64,000 bases of DNA from Eledone cirrhosa (lineage: Eukaryota). A program made the position numbers and the translations under genes. The first letter of the stretch is position 1. Every line of letters starts with the position of its first letter. Below are positions 18,743-59,718 of the stretch, in pieces. Under the pieces are notes generated by a model, which saw only the letters and a program-made list of their open reading frames with translations, had not been told where the DNA came from and made no database searches. The stretch lies in the NCBI GenBank assembly GCA_964016885.1, contig OZ024741.1, forward strand, positions 335,234,001 through 335,298,000, given 5' to 3'.

Positions 18743-19986
18743 TTAAACCTTATTTAATGTTGGTCTATATTTTTGAATAAACATATTTTCCTTATTTATT
18801 CGCATTTGTTCTGTTGTATTGTTAGCGCAAAGGTAAAATGGGAAGACTTGGAATTTGGGTGTCTTATTACTTGCGCAAATGTCTAGATGTGCACTTAGTG
18901 GTATCTGTCTCGTGGTTGGATCTCGTAATTGTTGGCGATGAACTGTCATTCTGTTTCTGAGTGTGAGTTTAGTTTGTCCTATATAATCTTCATTGCATCC
19001 TTTACATTTAATGGCATAAATTAGATTTTTTGATGAGCAAGTGAAGTGATTTTTTACAGTAAAATTTTGTCCTGATTTAAATGTATACGTGTTGTCTTCA
19101 ATGAGGTGAGTGCAGGTTCCACAATTAGAGCAACCACATTTTTTGATACTTGATTGTGGGTTTGTGGTAGGTAATTTGGCATTGGTGAGTAATGTTTTCA
19201 GTGATTTTGGTTGTCTTTTGCTTTTGATTATTTTGTGTGTTTCAAGGGCTTTTTTCATTCTTGGGTTTTGTTTTAGTAGTGGGATGTTATTGTGAATAGT
19301 GTTGTAAGCTTCCACATTTCTTGGGTTGTGTGTTGAGATATATGATAGAATATTGGACGTACCTTGAATTTGTTTCTGTTTCCGTAATTCATCAATGCCT
19401 ATTGCTTTAGCCCTTTCTATTCCATTATTTATTAGTAATAGTGGGTACTCTCTCTCAAGTAGAATTTCCTTTAATTCTTGAAGTCTTTTATTTCGCGTTT
19501 CATAATTGGAGACAATTGTGCAAATTCTTCTTGCTAGGTTAAAAGGAATGTTCGTCTTCGTGTGCTTTGGATGGTTGGAGGTGAATAGCAGATATTGTTT
19601 GGAATTTGTTGGTTTGTAGTGTATGTCAGTTTCGATATTTGTGTCTTTTTTTGTGATTAAGATGTCCAGAAATGGGAGTTGATCTTGGCTGTATTCCATT
19701 GTGAATTGGATGTGGTTATTGATGCCGTTTATTAAGTTTTTGAAATCCTTCAGTTGGTCGAGTGTGTGGGACCAAAGAATGAGGCAATCATCCAAGTAGC
19801 GTTTCCAATTCTCCGATAAATATTTGTGGAAGTTCAATCCGTATTTTGATTTGAACTGTTCATATATCTGGACTTCTAAGTATGCCATGACTAAGTTGGC
19901 ATAAGTTGGAGCGGCTTTTGTGCCCATCGCAGTCCCCGATATTTGCTTGTAAGTATTGCCATCGAAATCAAAAAAGTGGTTCTGTA
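18743..19986 (-). CDS. PLE reverse transcriptase C-terminal half plus GIY-YIG endonuclease (5'-truncated, uninterrupted frame)
   Basis: NHFFDFDGNTYKQISGTAMGTKAAPTYANL, WKRYLDD, LPFLDI, HYKPT, Cys linker KKCGCSNCGTC, NLIYAIKCKGCNEDYIGQT, RMTVHR, KENMFIQKYRPTLN. Confidence 0.9.
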
Positions 19987-20133
19987 GGCGCGAAATTTAT
20001 TATAATTATTGACAAACCAATCAAATTACTTCTCGAAAAACCTGGCTTTCAAGCCACTTTTTCCATATAAAACAAGTAACATTTAGAGACCAACCAGATG
20101 TGAGAAAAACCACAGACCCTCCATCTCAACTCA

Positions 20134-45869: not shown

Positions 45870-48800
45870 ATGACCATGCTGTAAAAGGGAGGGGTAGAGA
45901 GGGCCCATGAGTCCAGTAAGACATCCTCTCTAGTGCTGGTGGCACAAATAAAAGCACCCTGTCCATGCTGTAAAGTGACACTGGTGTTAGAAAGGGCATC
46001 CAACCAGTGTATCAATGTCAAAAGAATTATGAGCACAGCAACAAATATATAGGACGAACAAAAATATGAAAACATCGCATCTCAGAGTTGTAACACTTAA
46101 TGTTGGCCCTCTCACAGGTAGATCTGGTGAAATAGTCGAGATGCTGGAGACAAGGCATGTGGATGTGTGCTGCGTGCAAAAAGTGAGATGGAGAGGTGCT
46201 TCTGCAAGACTAGTCGCAGGCAAACATCTTAGCTATAAGCTTTTCTGGGTAGGTAAGGATGATGGGTTAGGGGGAGTAGGCATTTTCCTTGCTGAGAGAT
46301 GGATCAATAAGACAATAGAGGTAGTTCGAGTTAATAATCGAATAATTAAGCTTAGATTAGTTGTAGGCAGGAGACTACTGACAATTATCTCTGCCTATCC
46401 TCCCCAAGTAGGCCTAGGCAAAGAAGAGAAAGACTGCTTTTACGAGAAACTTTTACAAACAGCCGCAATGACAGAGGACAGAGACATCGTTATGCTAGCA
46501 GGAGACTTCAATGGTCATGTTGGACAGCTCCAGGATGGTTACATGGGGTACATGGTGGTCACGGTTACGGCTTAAGAAATGAAGAAGGAATGAGACTTCT
46601 TGAATTTTGTGATGCAAGTACACTGACTATTTACAACACTAACTTCCAGACACCTGCCAACCACCTAATTACCTACAAATCAGGCGAGCACATAAGCCAG
46701 ATTGACTTCTTACTAGTTAGGCAGCAGGACAGGCAGATGGTATCAAATACCAAGGCATACCCTGGGGAAGAATGTACCCTACAGCATAGGTTAGTCATTA
46801 GTGATATCTCAGTAAGCAAGAAATGGAATGAGACATACAGGAAGGTGTGGAGAAGAAAGGTCTGGAAGCTAAAAGACCTTTCACTAAAATACAAATTTAG
46901 GAAAGCCCTTCAAGATGTGTATGACGAAAAAGAAGACGATTTAGAGTCATATGACATAGATAATAACTGGAATTTCTTACGTGACAACTTACTGCAGGCT
47001 ACTGATGAAACTTGTGGCTGGAGCAGAGCTCCAACCAACAGCGAGTGACCTGGTGGTGGAACATCACAGTAGATAGGGCAATTAGTGACAAAAGACTAGC
47101 ATGGAAGGCTTGGAAAAAGGGTGGGAGTAGAGAAGGATATACAGCCGCTAAGAGAGAAGCTAGACGTCAGGTGTACTTAGCACACAGGGAGGCTGAGAGT
47201 AGGAGGTTTGCCAATGTTCTACGACGGGAAGATCAGAGGCATGAGGTGTTCCACATTGCAAGGTAGTGTGTCAATGCAAATCAGGATGTTGTTGGAGATA
47301 AGTGTGTCCAGAATGATGCCGGTATACTTAGTGTCATGAATGATCAGAAAAAGGAGGCCTGGAAATGTCATTATGAGAGACTGATGAATGTGGAGAATGA
47401 ATGGGAGAGAGAGAAATTACCCTCAGTAGATCCAACAGAGGGACCAGCTATTGAGATTGATGAATATAGGGTCCAAGAGGCGATTAGGGAAATGAAAAAT
47501 GGTAAGGATGCTGGACCGTCGGGGATAGTTGCTGAGATGCTGAAGGCACCAGGGGACGTAGGCACTAAACTGGTTGCATGCATCATCAATCAGGCTATAT
47601 ATGGTGGTGTCATACCCAAAGACTGGTGCAGCAGTATTCTCATAAATTGCTACACAGGTAAAGGGGATGCTCTGGGGAGGAGCAATTATAGAGGTATAAA
47701 ACTGATGGATCAGGTTATGAAAGTGGCAGAAAGGATATTAGCGCAACTAATTAGAGAAAGGGTCAAACTAGATGAGATGCAGTTTGGTTTTGTGCCTAGG
47801 AAAAGTACAACAGATGCCCTCTTCTTGGTGAGACAATTACAAGAGAGGTTCTTAGAGAAGAATAAGCCACTATACTTAGCCTTTGTTGACCTAGAGAAGG
47901 CCTTTGATAGGGTACCACAATCTGTCATCTGGAGGTCCCTAAGGAAACTAGGTGTTGAGGAATGGCTTGTGAGGACAGTGCAAACTTTGTACAGTGGTGC
48001 TGTCAGTAAAGTCAGGGTAGGAATGGAGTTTAGTGAGGAATTCCAGATACAAGTAGGAGTACATCAAGGTTCGGTCCTCAGCCCGCTCTTGTTCATTATA
48101 GTACTCCAAACCATAACAGAGGAGTTTAAGACTGGCTGTCCATGGGAACTTCTCTATGCTGACGATCTGGTTCTTATAGCAGAATCAGTAGAGGAGCTAG
48201 AGAATAAATTCTGGCTATGGAAACAGCAGTTGGAAGCAAGAGGACTGAGAGTGAACCTAGCTAAGAACAAAGTGTTGATGAGTAGAAAAGAGGACAAAGC
48301 TCTGATTCCATCAGGGAAATTGCCATGTTCGATATGCAGAAAAGGAACTGGCATAAATTCTATAAAATGCACACAATGCAGATCCTGGGTACACAAGAGA
48401 TGTAGCAGGATAGCAGGCAAACTAACAGGTAGGGAGAAATACGTATGCAGTAGATGTACAAGGAAATTAGACAGTAGAAGTCGCATTGATAGACACATTT
48501 TTCAAATGCAGGCAGGTGCTATAGAAGTGGTTGATAGCTTCCGGTACTTAGGAGATCAGATTAGCATGGGAGAGGAGGGTGTTCCGAGGCCATAGTATCT
48601 AGAATAAGGACGGGTTGGAAGAAGTTTAGGGAGCTGCTTTCTCTGCTGACGAAGAAGGGTTTCTCCCTGCGTACGAAAGGCCGGTTATATGATGCCTGTG
48701 TGAGGAGTGTGATGCTGCATGGTAGTGAGACATGGGCAGCAACTGCAGAGGATATGCGACAGCTGGAGAGAAATGAGGTAAGCATGCTCCATTGGATGTG

Positions 48801-49155
48801 CAATGTCAATCTGCATGAACGACCCAGCATGGATGTGTTGAGAGAGAAACTGTGTCTGAGAGGGATACAATGTAGTGTGCGAGAGAAGAGACTGCGGTGG
48901 TATGGACATGTAATGCACATGGAGGATGACCGATGGGTGAAGAAGTGCCAGGAAATGCCAGTTGAAGGAAGACATAGTAGAGGTAGACCACGAAAAAAAA
49001 TGGGCGGAGGTGGTGAGAACAGACCTCAGATCGCTGAAGCCCACGGTGGAGATGACGAAGGACTGTGACAAGTGGAGAGATGCTGTGCTGAATAAGACCC
49101 ATCCCACCCTTGCAAGCAGGGAAAAGCAGACGTAAAATGATGATGATGATGATGA

Positions 49156-52800: not shown

Positions 52801-52994
52801 TGACATGAAAGAATAGGAAAATCTTAAATTTTACCATTTTATAGCCATTTTGTTATATTGTATGTTGTCTCACATCACGGGAGAATTTGGAAGTAATGAT
52901 AACAGTGATGAGTGTATTTGCTTTGTTTTTAACAGACATAAGGAAGGCTCTTTCAATAATGGTGGAGGGGGGCATGATAATAATGAAGAAAATA

Positions 52995-53740
52995 ATGGTT
53001 TCTTATATAGGCACATGGCCAGTAATTCGAAGGGAAGGGGAATGTCGATTAAATATCTCCCCCAGTGCATTACTGGTACTTTATTTTATCAACCCCATAA
53101 GGATGAAAGACAAAGCTAATATCGGCGGGCTTTGAACTCAGAACGTAAAGGGCCGTAACTAAAGCATGGTGTTCAATGCTTTATCAGTACTGCCAAATAG
53201 TAATAATAACAATAATGATAATAATCGTTTCTAATTTTGGCACAAGAGAAGCAATTAAGAGTACTTTATTTTATCAACCCCCAAAATGATGAAAGGCAAA
53301 GTTGACCTCAGTGGGATTTGAACTCAGAATATAAAGAGTCAAAATAAATACTGCTAAGCATTTGTCAGATTTTCTAACAACTTTGCCTCACACCAATAAT
53401 AGTGATAATTTCTAATATAGGACAAGGCCAGCAATGATAAAGGGCAAAATTGACCTCAGTGAGATTTGAACTCAGATTGTAAATAATCATAATGAAAGCT
53501 GCAATAAATAACAATAATAATAATAATAATAAAGGTTTCTGATTTAGGCACAAGGCCAGCAATTTGTGGGAAAGGGAAAGTCTATTAAATCGACCGACCC
53601 CAGTACATTACTGGTACTGTATTTTAACAACCCCATAAGGATGAGAGGCACAGCTAACCTCGGCTAAACTCAGAACATAAAGGGACGTAACTATATACCG
53701 AAAAGCATGTCTAACACTCTACCGATACCGCCACCCTTAT
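52995..53740 (-). mobile_element. Head-to-tail array of Nin/Deu-domain-like SINEs downstream of the Tx1-like LINE
   Basis: About 4 co-oriented units separated by (AAT)n. Confidence 0.8.
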
Positions 53741-54009
53741 AATAATAATAATAATAATGCTTTCAATATTAACCACAAGGGTTGACACAAAGTAGACATT
53801 AAGGACAGTACAGGACAATACAGGACGGTACAAATGGGCATTTCTGCATATAAAAAAAAAAACAGGATGTAACAAAAAAAAGGAACAATGAAAAATTCCC
53901 CAATAAGGGGGAGACTTCCGAGGGCCATCGTGGTGAAAGCCCATTAAAAAAAGCCACAGTAACCCTTACCACCAGGGCAAGTGCCCTCTCCCAGTTTTCC
54001 ACCTTCAAT

Positions 54010-57000
54010 TTACAGGCACATACTCAGAGTAGGTCCATTCACTCGGGCCATTCTTGCCTCTCTCACAAATCTTTCAACAAAATGCTGGGAAGAGAGCACT
54101 TCCCTCTCTACCCTGATTTTCCTTTTCAAATGAAATTTGAAAAAGTTAATCAGAGCATCACTGAAGAGGTAAGTGCTCGTCTTCAGCCCTTTCAGATGCG
54201 TCCACCATACTATCTCTTTCGCCATGGCCACCAGACAGATAAAAAAGCCTGCCCTTCCCGGCTAAAGGAAGAGAGCGAAGCAATCCTCACGATGGACTCA
54301 GCTGATAGCCGGATCTGTTCTACATGCAACAGCAGGTGTTCGACATAAACCCACAAGTTGGCAATGCTCGGACACTGAACGAGTGGGTGCAGGACGGTTT
54401 CGTTGCCCTGCGCACATCTCGGACATGCCCGGCTGACGGCACTTCCATGCTTGTAGAGTTTATCCCGAACTGGCAAAGCTCCTTGGTAGCACTGCCAGGC
54501 CAGGGATTTCTGGAAGTTGTCCATAGGTCCCGGCCCAGAAGTTCTTCCGAAGAGATTGGCTAGTTGATTTTCGTTGACGCCTAGAGTTTCCCCAAGTACG
54601 TCGTCGCTGTTCCCCTCCACTAATCCTCTATAGAATGCCAAGGTGGAGTTTCCACTGATCACATTGCCTGACTGGTCGAGGGCTGTGAGCACCTAAAGAC
54701 ATTCCAGTCTCCAAGCGCTCCCTCTCGGTCTTCGCTTGACCCAGGACTGCAGCTCCATCAAGGAGACGAGCTGGGGAAAGACGCGTCTAGCAAACCGCGA
54801 CCACACCTGATCACCGTCGAGGAAGAGGTGGAGATGTCGTAGCCTGAGCGCGTGTCTGCGCATCATCAGCCACAGCATGCCCAGCCCTCCACGTAGCGGG
54901 TGTTGACAGCAGATGGACCGCCTGACCATCGGAGTGCGTCCCTTCCTCAAAAAGCGAAAGAGCAAACGATCCAGTGCAGTCAGGCGAGGCTTAGTACGCA
55001 TTCGCCACCTCCGCTCAACCTTTCAGGGATAGCTTCCTCTCCGCCCATTTCTGGGTGAGAGAAGCCACCCTGCTCGTCACCTTGTCCCAGTTTTTGTCCG
55101 TCTGGATGTCTGGACCGAACCAGACTCCTAGCAATTTAACCGGTTCGTTCGTCCAGCGCCCGATGACGATGTTGGATGGCATGAACCTGCCTCTCCAGGT
55201 GCCGAGCTGCAGGCCGATTGACTTTTCCTGGTTGATCATTGCTCCTGTCACCGCTTCGTATTCTCTTAGTGTAGTGCCGATTGCTTTGATATGTTTGGCA
55301 TTCGACACTACTACGTTGACATCATCCGCATATGCTGACATGGATCTTCTGCATCCTAGTCCAGTTTGTGCAGTACAAGAGGGATGAAAGGGGTCATCCT
55401 TGGCGGACCAAACGCATGATGTTGAACGGTTCCGAAAGGTGACCATTCACTCTCACCACAGAGCATATGTCACTGCGCATGGCAGCGATCCAGCCTCTGA
55501 AGACGAGCCCAAAGCCAGCCGCCCTCAGGACTGCCGCCAGATAACGATGGTTGATCTTATCGAAAGCTTTCGACTGATCTAAATTGATCAAGGACCCACC
55601 CATGCCAGGTTCCCTAGCTACCCTCTCTACGATGTATCGCATGAGGTGGAGCTTGTCATGGATGGATCTGTCTGGAATGGCACATGTCTGCGCCTCTCCC
55701 ACCAGACCAACAATGACAAGCGCCAACCTCTTTGCTACCACCTTGGCCAAAATCTTGAACTCTGTGTTTAGCAGAGTTATGGGCCTGAAATTATCTATGT
55801 TATCCCCCTTGTTCAGATCTTTTCTCAGCAGCGCAACCGCTCCTCGGCTCACAGAGCTGAGAATTCTCCCGTTCTGTTGCCAGTTGCAGTAGACGTCCGC
55901 CAAGAGGCCTCCAAACAAGTCTGGCATCTGTACGTAAAGTTCATAGAGCAGACCATCCAAACTAGGCGATTTACCCCTTGTGCAGCCAGTCATTGCCTCC
56001 TGTACTTCAGCTGCTGTTATCGGATTTTCGCAACACTCCCTCAGTGACCGAGAGCCGCGGCAGTCCATCGAGGTAGGCACTAAAGTCCATCCCTCGATCC
56101 GGCCCACCGCTGCCCCCGAACAGCTGAGCGAAGTGTCGCTGAAAAGCTTCACAAATTTGCCCGGGATCGAGTAGCATGCGCCTGTCGTGGTCCACCAAAG
56201 ACCGGATCGGGGCTTTGTTGCTACGACGTGCTTCCGCCACTCGGCCCATTGAATGGCTTTCGTCCTCTTGTGTCTGAGAGCACGCACTCTAGCTCTGACA
56301 ACGCAGCCTTCGTGCTTTGCATTGAAGAACTGCTCAAAGGCCAATTTCGCTGCAAACGTCGATCGCGATGCCTTTGCTAAGCGCCTCGTCTAATTTTCTA
56401 TCTAGTTCTCCCTCTGCTCTATTTTTCTCTATTCCTAAAGCCTTACTACACCTAATGGACTCTATTCTAATCGCTCTTTTCAGAGCAAACCACCATTTGT
56501 TGTTGACGATGGCCCTCGTCAACGCTCGCTTAACTAGTTCGCTAATCCGGTCTCTGTAGGCCTTGTGCGCTGTTAATGACGCATTTAGCTTCCAGTAGCC
56601 AGGTCCCTGTCTATGAAGCCTATCTAAGTCAACCACACAGATCACAAATTTGTGGTCCGTGTAGCTGACTATCTTGAATTGTGAACAGCCTATGCAAGAC
56701 CTATCTATTTCCCTACAAAATACTCTATCTAGATATGATCTGGATGAGCCGACGCGGTTTGTCCAAGTCCACATTGGCACATTCGGGAAATCCAATCAGT
56801 ACCTGTCTGACAGTTGAAAACACCTGAGTAGGTTTGTGAGGCATTTACACCCTCCTCCCCTATCCGCTAATCCCACACAATCCCAGCGTGCATCTAAGAT
56901 CCTGTTCCAGTCGCCCACTAACACTAGAGAGCGGAACGTTCCAAGAAAGGTCTCCAGACGCCGGAAGAATTCAGGCCGTCCTGCTCCTGTTGGGGCATAG

Positions 57001-57344
57001 GCAGCCACTAGCCTGAAAGCTTGTCTTTCTCCGCTGGTCACGTCCAGTACCACAAACTTACCCTCTGGGTCCAAGAAGACGGCCCGTATCTCGACATCCA
57101 GACATCTGGCCGGAACAACACGGCCATTCCCCCCGCCCTCCACCCCCGATCCGGGACGGCTTGGAGATGTGTACACCTCGTAGCCGCCGAAAATGGGTGA
57201 GAATGTCCGTGCCTCGGAGATTCTGGTCTCGCTGATGGCCGCCACATCTATGTTTAGCAACCTGAGATCGTTCACCATGTGGCCCTGCTTCCAGGACGAC
57301 CCCAGGCCACGTACATTTATGCTACCTATTTTGAGATAAGCCAT
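54010..57344 (-). pseudogene. Tx1/L1-type ORF2 (APE, RT, C-terminal zinc finger), disrupted
   Basis: IGSINVRGL, ISETR, LVGDWN, SYLDRVF, YTDHK, GPGYWKLNAS, FRPITLLNTEFKILAKV, LDQSKAFDKINH, VRQG, SAYADD, KLLGVWF, GGLGM, CPRC..ETVLHPLVQC. Confidence 0.9.
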
Positions 57345-57399
57345 GTTGGCTAGGATAGGAGGAAAACAAGTGAGAGGGAGGAGGTATAAAAAATTACCT

Positions 57400-59005
57400 G
57401 TGGCTCTTCTTTAGGAAGGGGGTGGGTGATCCATCCTTCCGACCAGTGGTGGGTTTCTCCATGAAAATATCCGTGAATATTCTTTTGGTGATGTTCCCTC
57501 GGTAGTCTCCAATTTATGTGGGGAACATTTTTTTTAATGTTATGTAATTTTTTTGTGTAATTTCTATTATTTTTATGCGTGTGGGGGGTGCAATTTTGGT
57601 AGTTTGTTTCTGTGATGTTGGTGTGGTGTTGAATGTAATTTAAAAGCTTTGTGTTGTCTGTGTCTATGGCTGTGTATTGTATCTGCTGTTTGGGTGTTGG
57701 TGCTTTCTGTGTTTGCTGTCGTGTTGTTGGAGGTGACGATGGGGTAGATGCTAAGAGTGGCAGTGATGGTGATGGCGGTGGTGGTGGTGGTGTTGGTAGT
57801 GGTGGTAGGTGATGGTGTAGGTGGTTGTGGGGTGTGTGGCTGTTGATGGTGGTGGGGTAGATTTCATTTTCTTTTCTTTAGGGTTCTTTCTTCCTCTTTT
57901 TTTTGGGGGGGGGGGGAGTAGGGAGTTCTTCCTTTTTTTTTGTTGGAATAGTCCTCCACTCTTCGGCCTCATTGCACTCCTTGTCCGATTTAGCTATATC
58001 AGGAAGGGGTATGCTTTCCATTGGTTCTCTGGGTGGTGGAAGAGATGGTGCTTTTGTTGTTGGGGATGATGATTTCTCTTCTGCCACTGTGGTCTTTGTT
58101 TGTTTGTCTGCTCCAGTTGCGGGGCACGGCGTGGGGAGAAGGGGTGGGCGCGTGCCTGTTTTGGTAAGTTTGGGGCAGAATGCCTTAAGGTGCGTCTTGT
58201 CACCGCATCCATGACACCTTGACCGCCTACCTTCGACAGTCACGGGTAGATGGCTGCCGTCGTCGAGGTCTATTACATTGAGGATGGCCTCAATGCTCTC
58301 ATGGTTTGCTAGGATGATTAGCTCCATCCCCGACCCTGTCCAATTTTCCTGTCTTATTCGCATGACGTTGAGTATGGTTGTTGAATCCTCAACGTCAGCG
58401 AGGACGGCTGCCGTCAACCAAGCCATCTCCACTGAGGGTGGAACCTGGCCCACTTAAACCCTCACGACTCTCTGGCCGCAGTATGTGGGCATCATTATGA
58501 TTTCGTCACTGCGGAGTGGCGCAATGTAGTGTGCTCTGGCTTCTTCTGGTGTAGCGAAGAGCAAATCCACAGTGCCATATCTCGATCCCCGGGCTATATA
58601 TGTTTCCTGTGCCTAGATGGTGCCCATAGCTCTTTGTACCTGTGACTCCATTGCCCATTCAACTCGCCTGGATTTTGATCCGATCGTGCGATAACTGACC
58701 GAACACAAAAGCTTGTTTCGTATTATCTCAGATGGGCGAGTGATACTTACTCTGTGTCCGGTCTTTTTAACCAAGACCTTTGCTTGTTTTATCTCTTCGT
58801 TAGTGATGTGTACTTGTTCAAAATTATTTGTCGTTTTAGCGAAAGCCGTGTTTGTTTTGATTTGTGTTGACTCATCACTAGTTTCGTCTTTGTTGCCGTC
58901 GTTAGTATTTTTGTTTGTTTTATTTTCCTCTGTGTTGCTGCTGTTATAGTTGTTGTTCTTTGGGTTCTTTATGGCTGTTGCTGTTGTTATTGTTGTTATT
59001 GGGGT
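57400..59005 (-). pseudogene. Tx1/L1-type ORF1 with CCHC zinc knuckle, disrupted
   Basis: VTVEGRRSRCHGCGDKTHLKAFC (CX2CX4HX4C), followed by a Pro/Lys-rich tail. In-frame stops join ORFs 58613..59086 and 57878..58453. Confidence 0.75.
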
Positions 59006-59008
59006 GGT

Positions 59009-59630
59009 GATGTCTAATATAGATACAAGGCAGGCAGTTTTGGTGGGAAAAAAGTTGACTAAATTAACCTTGGTTTTGCTTTTCATCTTTTCAGGGTCAA
59101 TTAAATTAAATATTTTCTTTCATCGACCCTGGAAGTACAAGAGGCAAAATTGACCTTGTTCAGACTTGAACTCAGAATGTAAATGGCCATAATGAAAAAC
59201 TGCAAAGAATAACAAAAATAATAATAATTGTTTCTACTTTAGGCACAAGACCAGAAATTACCCAGTGCATTACTGGTACTTTATTTTATCGACCCCATAA
59301 GGATGAAAGGCAAAGTCAACCTCGGCGGGATTTGAACTCAGATCGTAAAGGGACGTAACTATGCTGGAAAGCATGGCGTCCGACTCTCTACCGATACTGC
59401 CAATAATAATGGTTTCTACTTTGGGCACAAGGCCAACATTTTTTGGGAGAGGCAAGTCGATTAAATCAACCTCAGTGTGTTTCTGATACTTTGTTTTATT
59501 GACCCAGTAAGGATGAAAGGCAAAGCTCACCTTGGTGGGATTTGAACTCAGAACGTAAAGGGCCATAACTCTATGCCGCTAAGCATGTTATCCGACGCTA
59601 TACCAATTCTGCCAATCCACCACCCTTCAA
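59009..59630 (-). mobile_element. Head-to-tail array of ~3 Nin/Deu-domain-like SINEs upstream of the Tx1-like LINE
   Basis: Co-oriented units separated by (AAT)n. A copy in the opposite orientation lies at ~59850-60065. Confidence 0.8.
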
Positions 59631-59631
59631 A

Positions 59632-59718
59632 AATAATAATAATAAAGATGTCTTTTAATGACAACAAGGGTGCAAGACATTGGGGACAATACAAGGACGA
59701 AAAATAGGGTTTACAATT
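59632..59718 (-). mobile_element. Short 3' stub of a Tx1-like LINE
   Basis: Minus GTCCTTGTATTGTCCCCAATGTCTTGCACCCTTGTTGTC...(ATT)n resembles the 3'UTR at 53740-53830 (GTCCTGTATTGTCC..AATGTCT..ACCCTTGTGG). Confidence 0.55.

What the first reader, a model, noticed from the sequence alone, without database searches (positions are those of the whole stretch)
53740..53790. Shared 3' hairpin with conserved CTTGT loop and compensatory stems in the Tx1-like LINE and the Nin-like SINE
Seen (element sense): the LINE ends AACC-CTTGT-GGTT-AATATTGAAAGC(ATT)n (hairpin 53771-53783). The SINE ends GGC-CTTGT-GCC-TAAATCAGAAACCT(TTA)n (hairpin 53547-53557). Loop, spacing to GAAA and tail repeat match, while the stems differ but still pair. 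Known: stringent LINEs such as eel UnaL2 recognise a 3' stem-loop shared with their partner SINEs, whereas mammalian L1 needs only poly(A). Inference: this is the RT recognition signal, and an L1/Tx1-clade element is the stringent partner of this SINE. The stems are short, so chance similarity is possible.
Basis: partly seen in the sequence, partly recalled or inferred. Interest (0 to 1): 0.7.

Follow-up and report, generated by a model that had tools for sequence, protein, structure and literature searches.

The report
SINE mimics Tx1 LINE tail hairpin
In this probably octopod genome, a very abundant short jumping element ends in the same 24-letter signal as a group of long jumping genes, with a predicted small RNA hairpin, and leaves the same landing scar, so it likely borrows their copying enzyme, a pairing I did not find described for this group of long elements.

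Summary
Observation confirmed and family-wide. The LINE hairpin AACC-CTTGT-GGTT is intact in 28 of 30 copies; the SINE's three pairs hold in 212-216 of 230 copies. Five related L1/Tx1-type lineages keep (G/A)CC-CTTGT-GG(C/T)-N-AATAAA-GAAA (13,743 pattern hits, control 0). The SINE matches three of them at 14-17 of 24 letters without gaps; CR1, RTE and Dong tails reach at most 10. Corrections: the conserved stem is 3 bp, covariation rests on two events, folding energy is ordinary, and the (ATT)n is largely duplicated target, not tail. The strongest new evidence is the scar: SINE and LINE both make 10-22 nt duplications starting ATTAT, while an ATT-ending CR1 makes none (0 of 21). Against: the SINE lands mostly on short ATTAT sites, the LINE in long arrays; rarer LINE families were not surveyed. 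Tx1 partnership about 0.8; hairpin as RT signal about 0.6, untested. This scan already noted the same pairing on at least eight other stretches of this genome.

The parts
53757..59000 (-). Decayed L1/Tx1-type LINE, lineage A (ORF1-like remnant about 58700-57500; ORF2 with endonuclease, RT, zf-RVT from 57347, broken by stops and frameshifts; 3' UTR to 53759). 5' boundary approximate
   Evidence: RVT_1 and zf-RVT in window ORFs; 89% DNA identity over 57347-53750 to a young copy whose 1204-aa frame carries Exo_endo_phos, RVT_1, zf-RVT
53771..53783 (-). LINE 3' hairpin AACC-CTTGT-GGTT (inner 3 pairs conserved across lineages)
   Evidence: in MFE and centroid folds
53759..53770 (-). LINE terminal 12 nt: mutated AATAAA (here AATATT) + GAAA + GC; insertion junction at 53759
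53741..53758 (-). (ATT)6 between LINE end and SINE head: shared target / target-site duplication
   Evidence: ATT arrays on the 5' side of 17 of 17 LINE copies with an identifiable 5' end
53534..53737 (-). SINE, long subfamily (about 213 nt), with A-box-like and B-box-like motifs read by eye from established Pol III consensus
   Evidence: ARAGORN and Rfam give no significant tRNA match
53547..53557 (-). SINE 3' hairpin GGC-CTTGT-GCC
53534..53546 (-). SINE terminal 13 nt: 7-nt spacer of variable sequence and fixed length + GAAA + CC
   Evidence: spacer 7 nt in 178 of 188 copies, 24 distinct spacer sequences seen
52990..53500 (-). Further same-strand decayed SINE copies and fragments stacked behind the first
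   Evidence: hits 53161-52991, 53361-53261, 53256-53218
59220..59620 (-). Two same-strand SINE copies (long and short subfamily) upstream of the LINE, separated by ATT units
59645..59715 (-). Short decayed 3' end of an older lineage (B) of the same LINE group, heading the stack
   Evidence: relatives carry ORF2 C-terminal similarity (6 of 30 loci by tblastn)

Best explanation
The SINE and a group of L1/Tx1-type LINEs share a 24-nt 3' end and the same insertion scar, so the SINE is likely copied by these LINEs' ORF2 protein, which would recognise the predicted 3-bp hairpin with its CTTGT loop and start reverse transcription a fixed distance downstream. Shown: shared gap-free end (loop 16 nt before the junction in the SINE and in lineages A, D/E, G; 17 in B, C); 10-22 nt duplications that begin ATTAT in both; three stem pairs kept through two double changes; AATAAA kept only in the LINEs. 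Inferred: the endonuclease nicks opposite ATTAT(T); hairpin plus GAAA is the ORF2 handle; AATAAA serves Pol II 3' processing, which a Pol III SINE does not need; AUU read-through in the RNA pairs with the nicked primer, several units for the LINE and only AUUAU(U) for the SINE, which would explain why the LINE sits in long arrays and the SINE at short sites, and why both pile up head to tail.
For: (1) Tail identity 14-17 of 24 for A, D/E, G versus at most 10 for RTE, CR1, two Dong-type ends; shuffle frequencies 76 and 18 of 200,000; 18-row alignment is gap-free. (2) Motif conserved across five LINE lineages whose ORF2 pieces are roughly 60-90% identical in protein and whose upstream 3' UTRs differ, including lineage G, which is followed by TC/TATC repeats instead of ATT. 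(3) Inner three pairs standard in 54 of 54 cells; pair 3 GC to AU on the branch to A, pair 2 CG to GC in the SINE; RNAalifold predicts only these three pairs. (4) SINE constraint: spacer sequence varies, length fixed in 178 of 188; the short subfamily deletes about 35 nt just upstream and keeps the last about 31 nt. (5) Scar: 79 of 156 full-length SINEs have a duplication of 10 nt or more, 50 of them non-repetitive, 10-22 nt, ATTAT at 94-98% per position, versus 2.5% in mismatched-flank controls; LINE copies followed by only two ATT units: 9 of 17 mappable have one of 9-20 nt, five exact at 14-19 nt; the ATT-ending CR1: 0 of 21 at 10 nt or more. (6) Ages overlap: short SINE median 5.8% from majority, LINE A 5.9%, D 3.0%, long SINE 12%. 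(7) In zebrafish L2, loop is the specific and stem the general determinant, and stem swaps still transpose (PMC4176376, abstract and Discussion), the pattern seen here.
Against: Folding energy is unremarkable (z from -0.65 to +0.65 in 5 of 5 folds). Covariation is two independent events; for pairs with a change on both sides 215 of 500 shuffles reach the observed value, and pair 4 fails in 12 of 18 rows. Shared sequence is only 24 nt. Target use differs: a perfect ATT run of 15 nt or more follows 63 of 104 LINE ends but 25 of 266 SINE ends, 0 of 91 in random DNA. 34 of 54 LINE copies with a mapped 5' end showed no duplication of 10 nt or more and only 2 were non-repetitive; lineage B gave no usable duplications. 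A similar GC-stem hairpin sits in the LINE 5' UTRs, so such hairpins arise in more than one context. Low-copy LINE families were not surveyed (1.8 Mb seen, 854 kb of it random). No functional data.
Confidence: 0.62

Rival explanations
1. The Tx1-type LINE is the partner, but the hairpin is not what ORF2 reads: the SINE tail is an inherited piece of an ancestral LINE end, and specificity comes from AUU-target pairing or from the GAAA-C end; in the LINE the block is conserved as a poly(A)-signal module.
For: AATAAA is invariant in all five lineages; hairpin is weak; only two compensatory events.
Against: The SINE lost AATAAA yet kept hairpin, GAAA and spacing through subfamily turnover; both double changes keep pairing; no other recurrent family with ATTAT-starting duplications appeared among 92 repeat pairs in 854 kb, 12 of which end in the SINE tail versus 0-2 for six control prefixes (weak test, most other rows are satellites or chance).
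Confidence: 0.2
2. The true partner is an unseen or extinct LINE (another L1/Tx1 lineage or another clade) whose tail matches the SINE exactly; the lineages seen here are only relatives of it or resemble it.
For: No LINE with the SINE's GGC/GCC stem was found; a genome-wide pattern joining that stem to AATAAA gave 2 hits, both SINE copies; SINE and LINE differ in ATT-run length; an Octopus vulgaris annotation lists 47 recently active LINE families (PMC13282606, part 1 of 3 read), far more than I sampled.
Against: 110 of 114 SINE-tail motifs lie on SINE bodies, two on 5'-truncated SINEs, one is a lineage-G tail, one is isolated; CR1, RTE, RTE-like and Dong-type ends do not match. An extinct Tx1 lineage would still leave the main claim (Tx1-group partner) standing.
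Confidence: 0.13
3. Chance or convergence: two unrelated A-rich ends with a small GC hairpin next to the same ATT microsatellite.
For: Short match; 5' UTR hairpins of similar look exist and their similarity to the SINE is not significant (z at most 2.5 in 36 comparisons).
Against: Anchored, gap-free 16-17 of 24 with shuffle frequency below 4 in 10,000, plus the shared duplication signature that the ATT-ending CR1 lacks.
Confidence: 0.05

Closest known systems
Stringent L2 pairs: eel UnaL2/UnaSINE; zebrafish ZfL2-1, ZfL2-2 (PMC4176376, abstract and Discussion read; PMC3747384 Table 1 read)
   Same: Shared 3' stem-loop near the end, loop conserved and stem exchangeable, no poly(A) in the copies
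   Different: Different clade; those signals are proven by assay; here the stem is only 3 bp and the repeat behind the element is largely duplicated target
L1-clade stringent pairs: maize LINE1-1_ZM with ZmSINE2/3, Chlamydomonas L1-1_CR with SINEX-3_CR (PMC3747384, passages and tables read)
   Same: L1-group LINE sharing a 3' hairpin with compensatory changes with a tRNA-type SINE
   Different: [quoted passage not shown]
Crocodilian SINEU with Tx1-Mar (PMC4494074, parts 1-4 of 5 read)
   Same: Tx1-clade partner inferred from shared target preference, overlapping ages and tandem stacking
   Different: SINEU has poly(A) tails, snRNA heads and no LINE sharing the SINEU-1 3' end was found; target is a Mariner element, not a microsatellite
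Microsatellite-targeting Tx1 families Kibi (TC)n, Koshi (TTC)n, crocodilian (TTCC)n/(TTTC)n (PMC4494074)
   Same: APE-type Tx1 elements flanked by a microsatellite; lineage G here is followed by TC/TATC repeats
   Different: Target here is (ATT)n; no partner SINE named for those families in that paper; kinship to Kibi/Koshi not tested by tree
Nin-DC/Deu SINEs and the octopus OK, OR1, OR2 SINEs (PMC4758252, PMC4824008, PMC5804259, PMC3531059: passages; Ohshima and Okada 1994 seen only as a reference)
   Same: tRNA-type head plus central body in a mollusc; that the body resembles Nin and the family may be octopus OK is recalled, not tested
   Different: Listed Nin-SINE partners are L2 and CR1 (PMC3747384 Table 1), not Tx1

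Membership tests
L1 group LINE | ORF2 with APE endonuclease + RT + C-terminal zinc finger, closest to L1 among references | tested here: met
   Exo_endo_phos, RVT_1, zf-RVT; best PDB hit human L1 ORF2p E 2.8e-51 versus R2 2.8e-20 (the PDB holds few clades)
Tx1 clade | RT groups with Tx1/Keno/Kibi/Koshi in a phylogeny | tested here: inconclusive
   No reference RTs on hand, no tree with references; the only informatively named hit among 120 listed is 'Transposon TX1 uncharacterized 149 kDa protein', 36%, E 3.5e-62
Tx1 clade | Target-sequence preference | tested here: met
   (ATT)n on the 5' side of 17 of 17 copies with identifiable 5' end, from 20 loci; only 250 A/D/E-type ends are followed by two ATT units and then C or G
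tRNA-derived SINE | tRNA-related head with Pol III A and B boxes | tested here: inconclusive
   Box-like motifs by eye; ARAGORN 0 genes; Rfam no significant hit
tRNA-derived SINE | Short, non-coding, dispersed, target-site duplications, fixed 3' end | tested here: met
   182- and 213-nt forms; 187 hits in 854 kb random DNA; duplications
Nin-DC/Deu SINE | Central Nin domain | not testable with these tools
   No reference sequence available; motif search of 4 supplementary files found nothing and file 1 could not be searched
Stringent LINE/SINE pair | Shared 3' terminal sequence | tested here: met
   14-17 of 24, gap-free, for A, D/E, G; short by the standard of known pairs
Stringent LINE/SINE pair | Conserved stem-loop with compensatory changes | tested here: inconclusive
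   3 pairs kept in 54 of 54 cells, two double changes, but only two events and z near 0
Stringent LINE/SINE pair | Same insertion signature and overlapping activity | tested here: met
   ATT-run length differs
Stringent LINE/SINE pair | ORF2 binds the stem-loop and needs it for retrotransposition | not testable with these tools
   needs binding and mobilisation assays

The most novel reading that the evidence does not exclude
An animal L1/Tx1-type lineage reads a minimal 3-bp hairpin with a CUUGU loop as a ruler 16 nt from the priming site, ignores its own poly(A) signal as a priming site, and drives a SINE of several hundred thousand copies: a stringent L1-group partnership in animals with one of the smallest recognition signals described, while target choice (ATT versus TC/TATC) has changed independently of the signal.
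Probability: 0.45. Interest if true: 0.7.

Novelty: new variant of a known kind. Interest (0 to 1): 0.5.

Why it matters
Whether L1-group elements were ancestrally stringent and relaxed later is an open proposal resting on plant and algal pairs (PMC3747384). An animal L1/Tx1-type group with a shared tail hairpin, young intact-frame copies and a natural series of stem variants would make that directly testable, would name the engine of one of this genome's commonest repeats (roughly 650,000 copies extrapolated from 187 hits in 854 kb), and would explain its head-to-tail stacks in ATT repeats. The mechanism type itself is known, and Repbase or Dfam entries, which I could not see, may already record the pairing.

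Tried and rejected
Folding energy as evidence: rejected, z near 0. A 4-bp stem: rejected, pair 4 fails in D/E, G and over half of SINE copies. (ATT)n as a shared encoded tail: largely rejected, it starts the duplication. CR1, RTE, RTE-like and Dong-type partners: tails do not match; CR1 lacks duplications. SINE tail derived from the LINE 5' UTR hairpin: one blastn hit, 79% over 47 nt, E 8e-4, but not significant in 36 shuffled comparisons; left open, not supported. Search for a LINE with the SINE's stem: 2 hits, both SINEs. Lineage B duplications: 5' ends could not be mapped. Expression and RNA 3' ends: no RNA holder listed. Cross-species covariation: contigs of organisms B and C did not cover the LINE hairpin; no letter differences listed at the SINE hairpin on thin cover; uninformative. 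Nin check: supplements gave nothing, one file unseen. Literature: 8 searches; 'SINE' with 'mobilized by Tx1' returned only PMC4494074; none of the passages read describes an octopus SINE-Tx1 pair; Repbase, Dfam and subscription papers were not searchable. Two rows of the tree (L153, L020) pair a tail with a neighbouring element's ORF and were disregarded; 6 lineage-D tails were mis-binned as A.

Full report
Setting. The window lies in a 3.0-Gb genome; the nearest named protein relative of the LINE is from Argonauta hians (72% over part of the query), so the host is probably an octopod. On the minus strand the window holds a same-strand stack: a short old LINE end (about 59715-59645), two SINEs, a decayed LINE (about 59000-53759), six ATT units, the SINE of the finding (53737-53534) and further SINE remnants.

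Observation. Both hairpins are at the stated coordinates, with 10 nt from loop to GAAA in each. The LINE hairpin is exact in 28 of 30 genomic copies. The window's AATATT is a private change from AATAAA (1 of 44 tails). In 230 SINE copies the three inner pairs are standard in 216, 212 and 214; a fourth pair in only 98.

The LINE. A young copy has a 1204-aa frame with endonuclease, RT and zf-RVT; its best solved relative is human L1 ORF2p and the one informatively named database hit is a TX1 149-kDa protein. No tree with reference clades was possible, so 'Tx1' is likely, not shown. Of 20 long copies fetched, 17 had an identifiable 5' end and all 17 follow an ATT array. None of the 30 ends carries a poly(A) tail. 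A pattern with free stem positions has 13,743 hits, some double-counted, against 0 for the reversed control. A tree of the ORF2 C-terminal region separates five lineages: B and C (GGCC/GGCC or GGCT), G (YGCC/GGCW, followed by TC or TATC repeats), D/E (AGCC/GGCC) and A (AACC/GGTT, the window's). The shared core is GCC-CTTGT-GGC; A carries one compensatory change at pair 3. Pair 4 is not conserved.

SINE versus LINE ends. Ten LINE and eight SINE ends that I picked as representatives align without gaps. The inner three pairs hold in 54 of 54 cells; the SINE has pair 2 flipped, and RNAalifold predicts just those three pairs. These are two evolutionary events, and the count of pairs with double changes is reached by 215 of 500 shuffles, so covariation is suggestive only. 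The hairpin appears in the MFE and centroid of all 5 folds, but the energies are ordinary. Over the last 24 nt the SINE variants match A at 14-16, D/E and G at 16-17, B and C at 11-14 ungapped (they are one base longer), and RTE, CR1 and two Dong-type ends at 10 or less; 76 and 18 of 200,000 shuffles reach the A and D/E scores. The SINE's 7-nt spacer, where the LINE has AATAAA, varies in sequence but keeps its length in 178 of 188 copies, and the short subfamily has lost about 35 nt just upstream while keeping the last 31 or so.

The scar. Of 156 full-length SINEs, 79 have a duplication of 10 nt or more starting at the first base after the element; 50 are non-repetitive, 10-22 nt, and begin ATTAT; mismatched-flank controls give 2.5% (18% counting pure repeats). 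So the '(ATT)n tail' is largely target. LINE duplications are mostly hidden in pure repeats (20 of 54, 2 informative). I therefore selected copies followed by only two ATT units (250 genome-wide, 30 fetched): 12 ran off the locus, 1 gave no hit, and 9 of the 17 mappable had duplications of 9-20 nt, five of them exact at 14-19 nt. The obvious rival, a CR1-type family that also ends in (ATT)n, has an unrelated tail and no duplication of 10 nt or more in 21 mappable copies of 30. RTE ends in (ATG)n and Dong-type ends face the other way, in (AAT)n. In 854 kb of random DNA, 110 of 114 SINE-tail motifs sit on SINE bodies and none on a non-Tx1 LINE. Ages overlap.

Against. The SINE mostly uses short sites and the LINE long arrays: 15 nt or more of perfect ATT follows 25 of 266 SINE ends and 63 of 104 LINE ends. 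No LINE with the SINE's exact stem was found. Only 1.8 Mb was examined, so rare families are unsampled. LINE 5' UTRs end in a look-alike hairpin, a caution that such hairpins recur. Nothing functional was tested.

Mechanism (inferred). ORF2 binds hairpin plus GAAA, nicks opposite ATTAT(T), primes 16 nt below the loop, helped by pairing of read-through AUU with the primer, and nicks the second strand about 14-19 nt away. AATAAA would serve LINE RNA processing only. More AUU units on LINE RNA than on SINE RNA would account for the different array lengths. Each insertion regenerates ATTAT on both sides, which would build the stacks. Odds: Tx1-group partner about 0.8; hairpin as the handle, given that, about 0.75.

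Known systems. Stringent stem-loop reading is proven for L2 (PMC4176376: abstract, Discussion). In the L1 group, shared tails are listed for maize and Chlamydomonas only (PMC3747384: passages, tables). A Tx1-SINE partnership is proposed for crocodilian SINEU from target preference, without a shared tail (PMC4494074: parts 1-4 of 5). PMC5786205 (Introduction), PMC13282606 (part 1 of 3) and passages of PMC4758252, PMC4824008, PMC5804259 and PMC3531059 name no such pair. The Nin and OK labels are recalled and untested.

Earlier scan notes. After forming this reading I found eight listed notes from other stretches of the same genome with the same conclusion. They are not independent support.

Verdict. 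Real feature, new variant of a known kind; partnership well supported, recognition role plausible and untested. Interest 0.5.

Noticed in passing
L132:6940-6980 (minus), L265, L270, L271, L262, L123, L274 5' UTRs: Every LINE 5' UTR type examined ends in a strong hairpin about 40-60 nt before the ORF1 ATG (up to 11 bp in lineage C); in the older A subfamily it reads GGGC-CTTGA-GCCC and resembles the SINE tail. At least five different 5' ends occur, suggesting repeated 5' UTR turnover.
   Followed up: partly
L279, L280, L281, L200: Lineage G keeps the same 3' hairpin but is followed by TC or TATC repeats instead of ATT: target switch without signal change.
   Followed up: partly
L141:1500-1525, L142:1500-1525: Two SINE copies end in a LINE-type AATAAA-W-GAAA; L141 has exactly lineage C's last 13 nt, a possible template switch; chance mutation not excluded.
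   Followed up: partly
L128, L132, L138, L140 flanks: Dong/R4-type elements use the same microsatellite from the opposite strand, ending in (AAT)n; clade label from recalled motifs.
   Followed up: partly
window 47267-49150 (+): RTE-type LINE with a PHD finger inside the RT-bearing frame, ending in (ATG)n; abundant, 93-96% protein identity among 150 listed hits.
   Followed up: partly
window 18743-19996 (-): Penelope-like frame with RT and GIY-YIG.
   Followed up: no
G000:C1:441098534-441134912 and C2:188056358-188074641: Head-to-tail arrays of the young LINE at about 6.07-kb spacing, joined by only two ATT units.
   Followed up: no
L232-L261: CR1-type family with its own 3' hairpin (AGTGC-ACCTGA-GCACT), an encoded (ATT)n tail and no target duplications.
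   Followed up: partly
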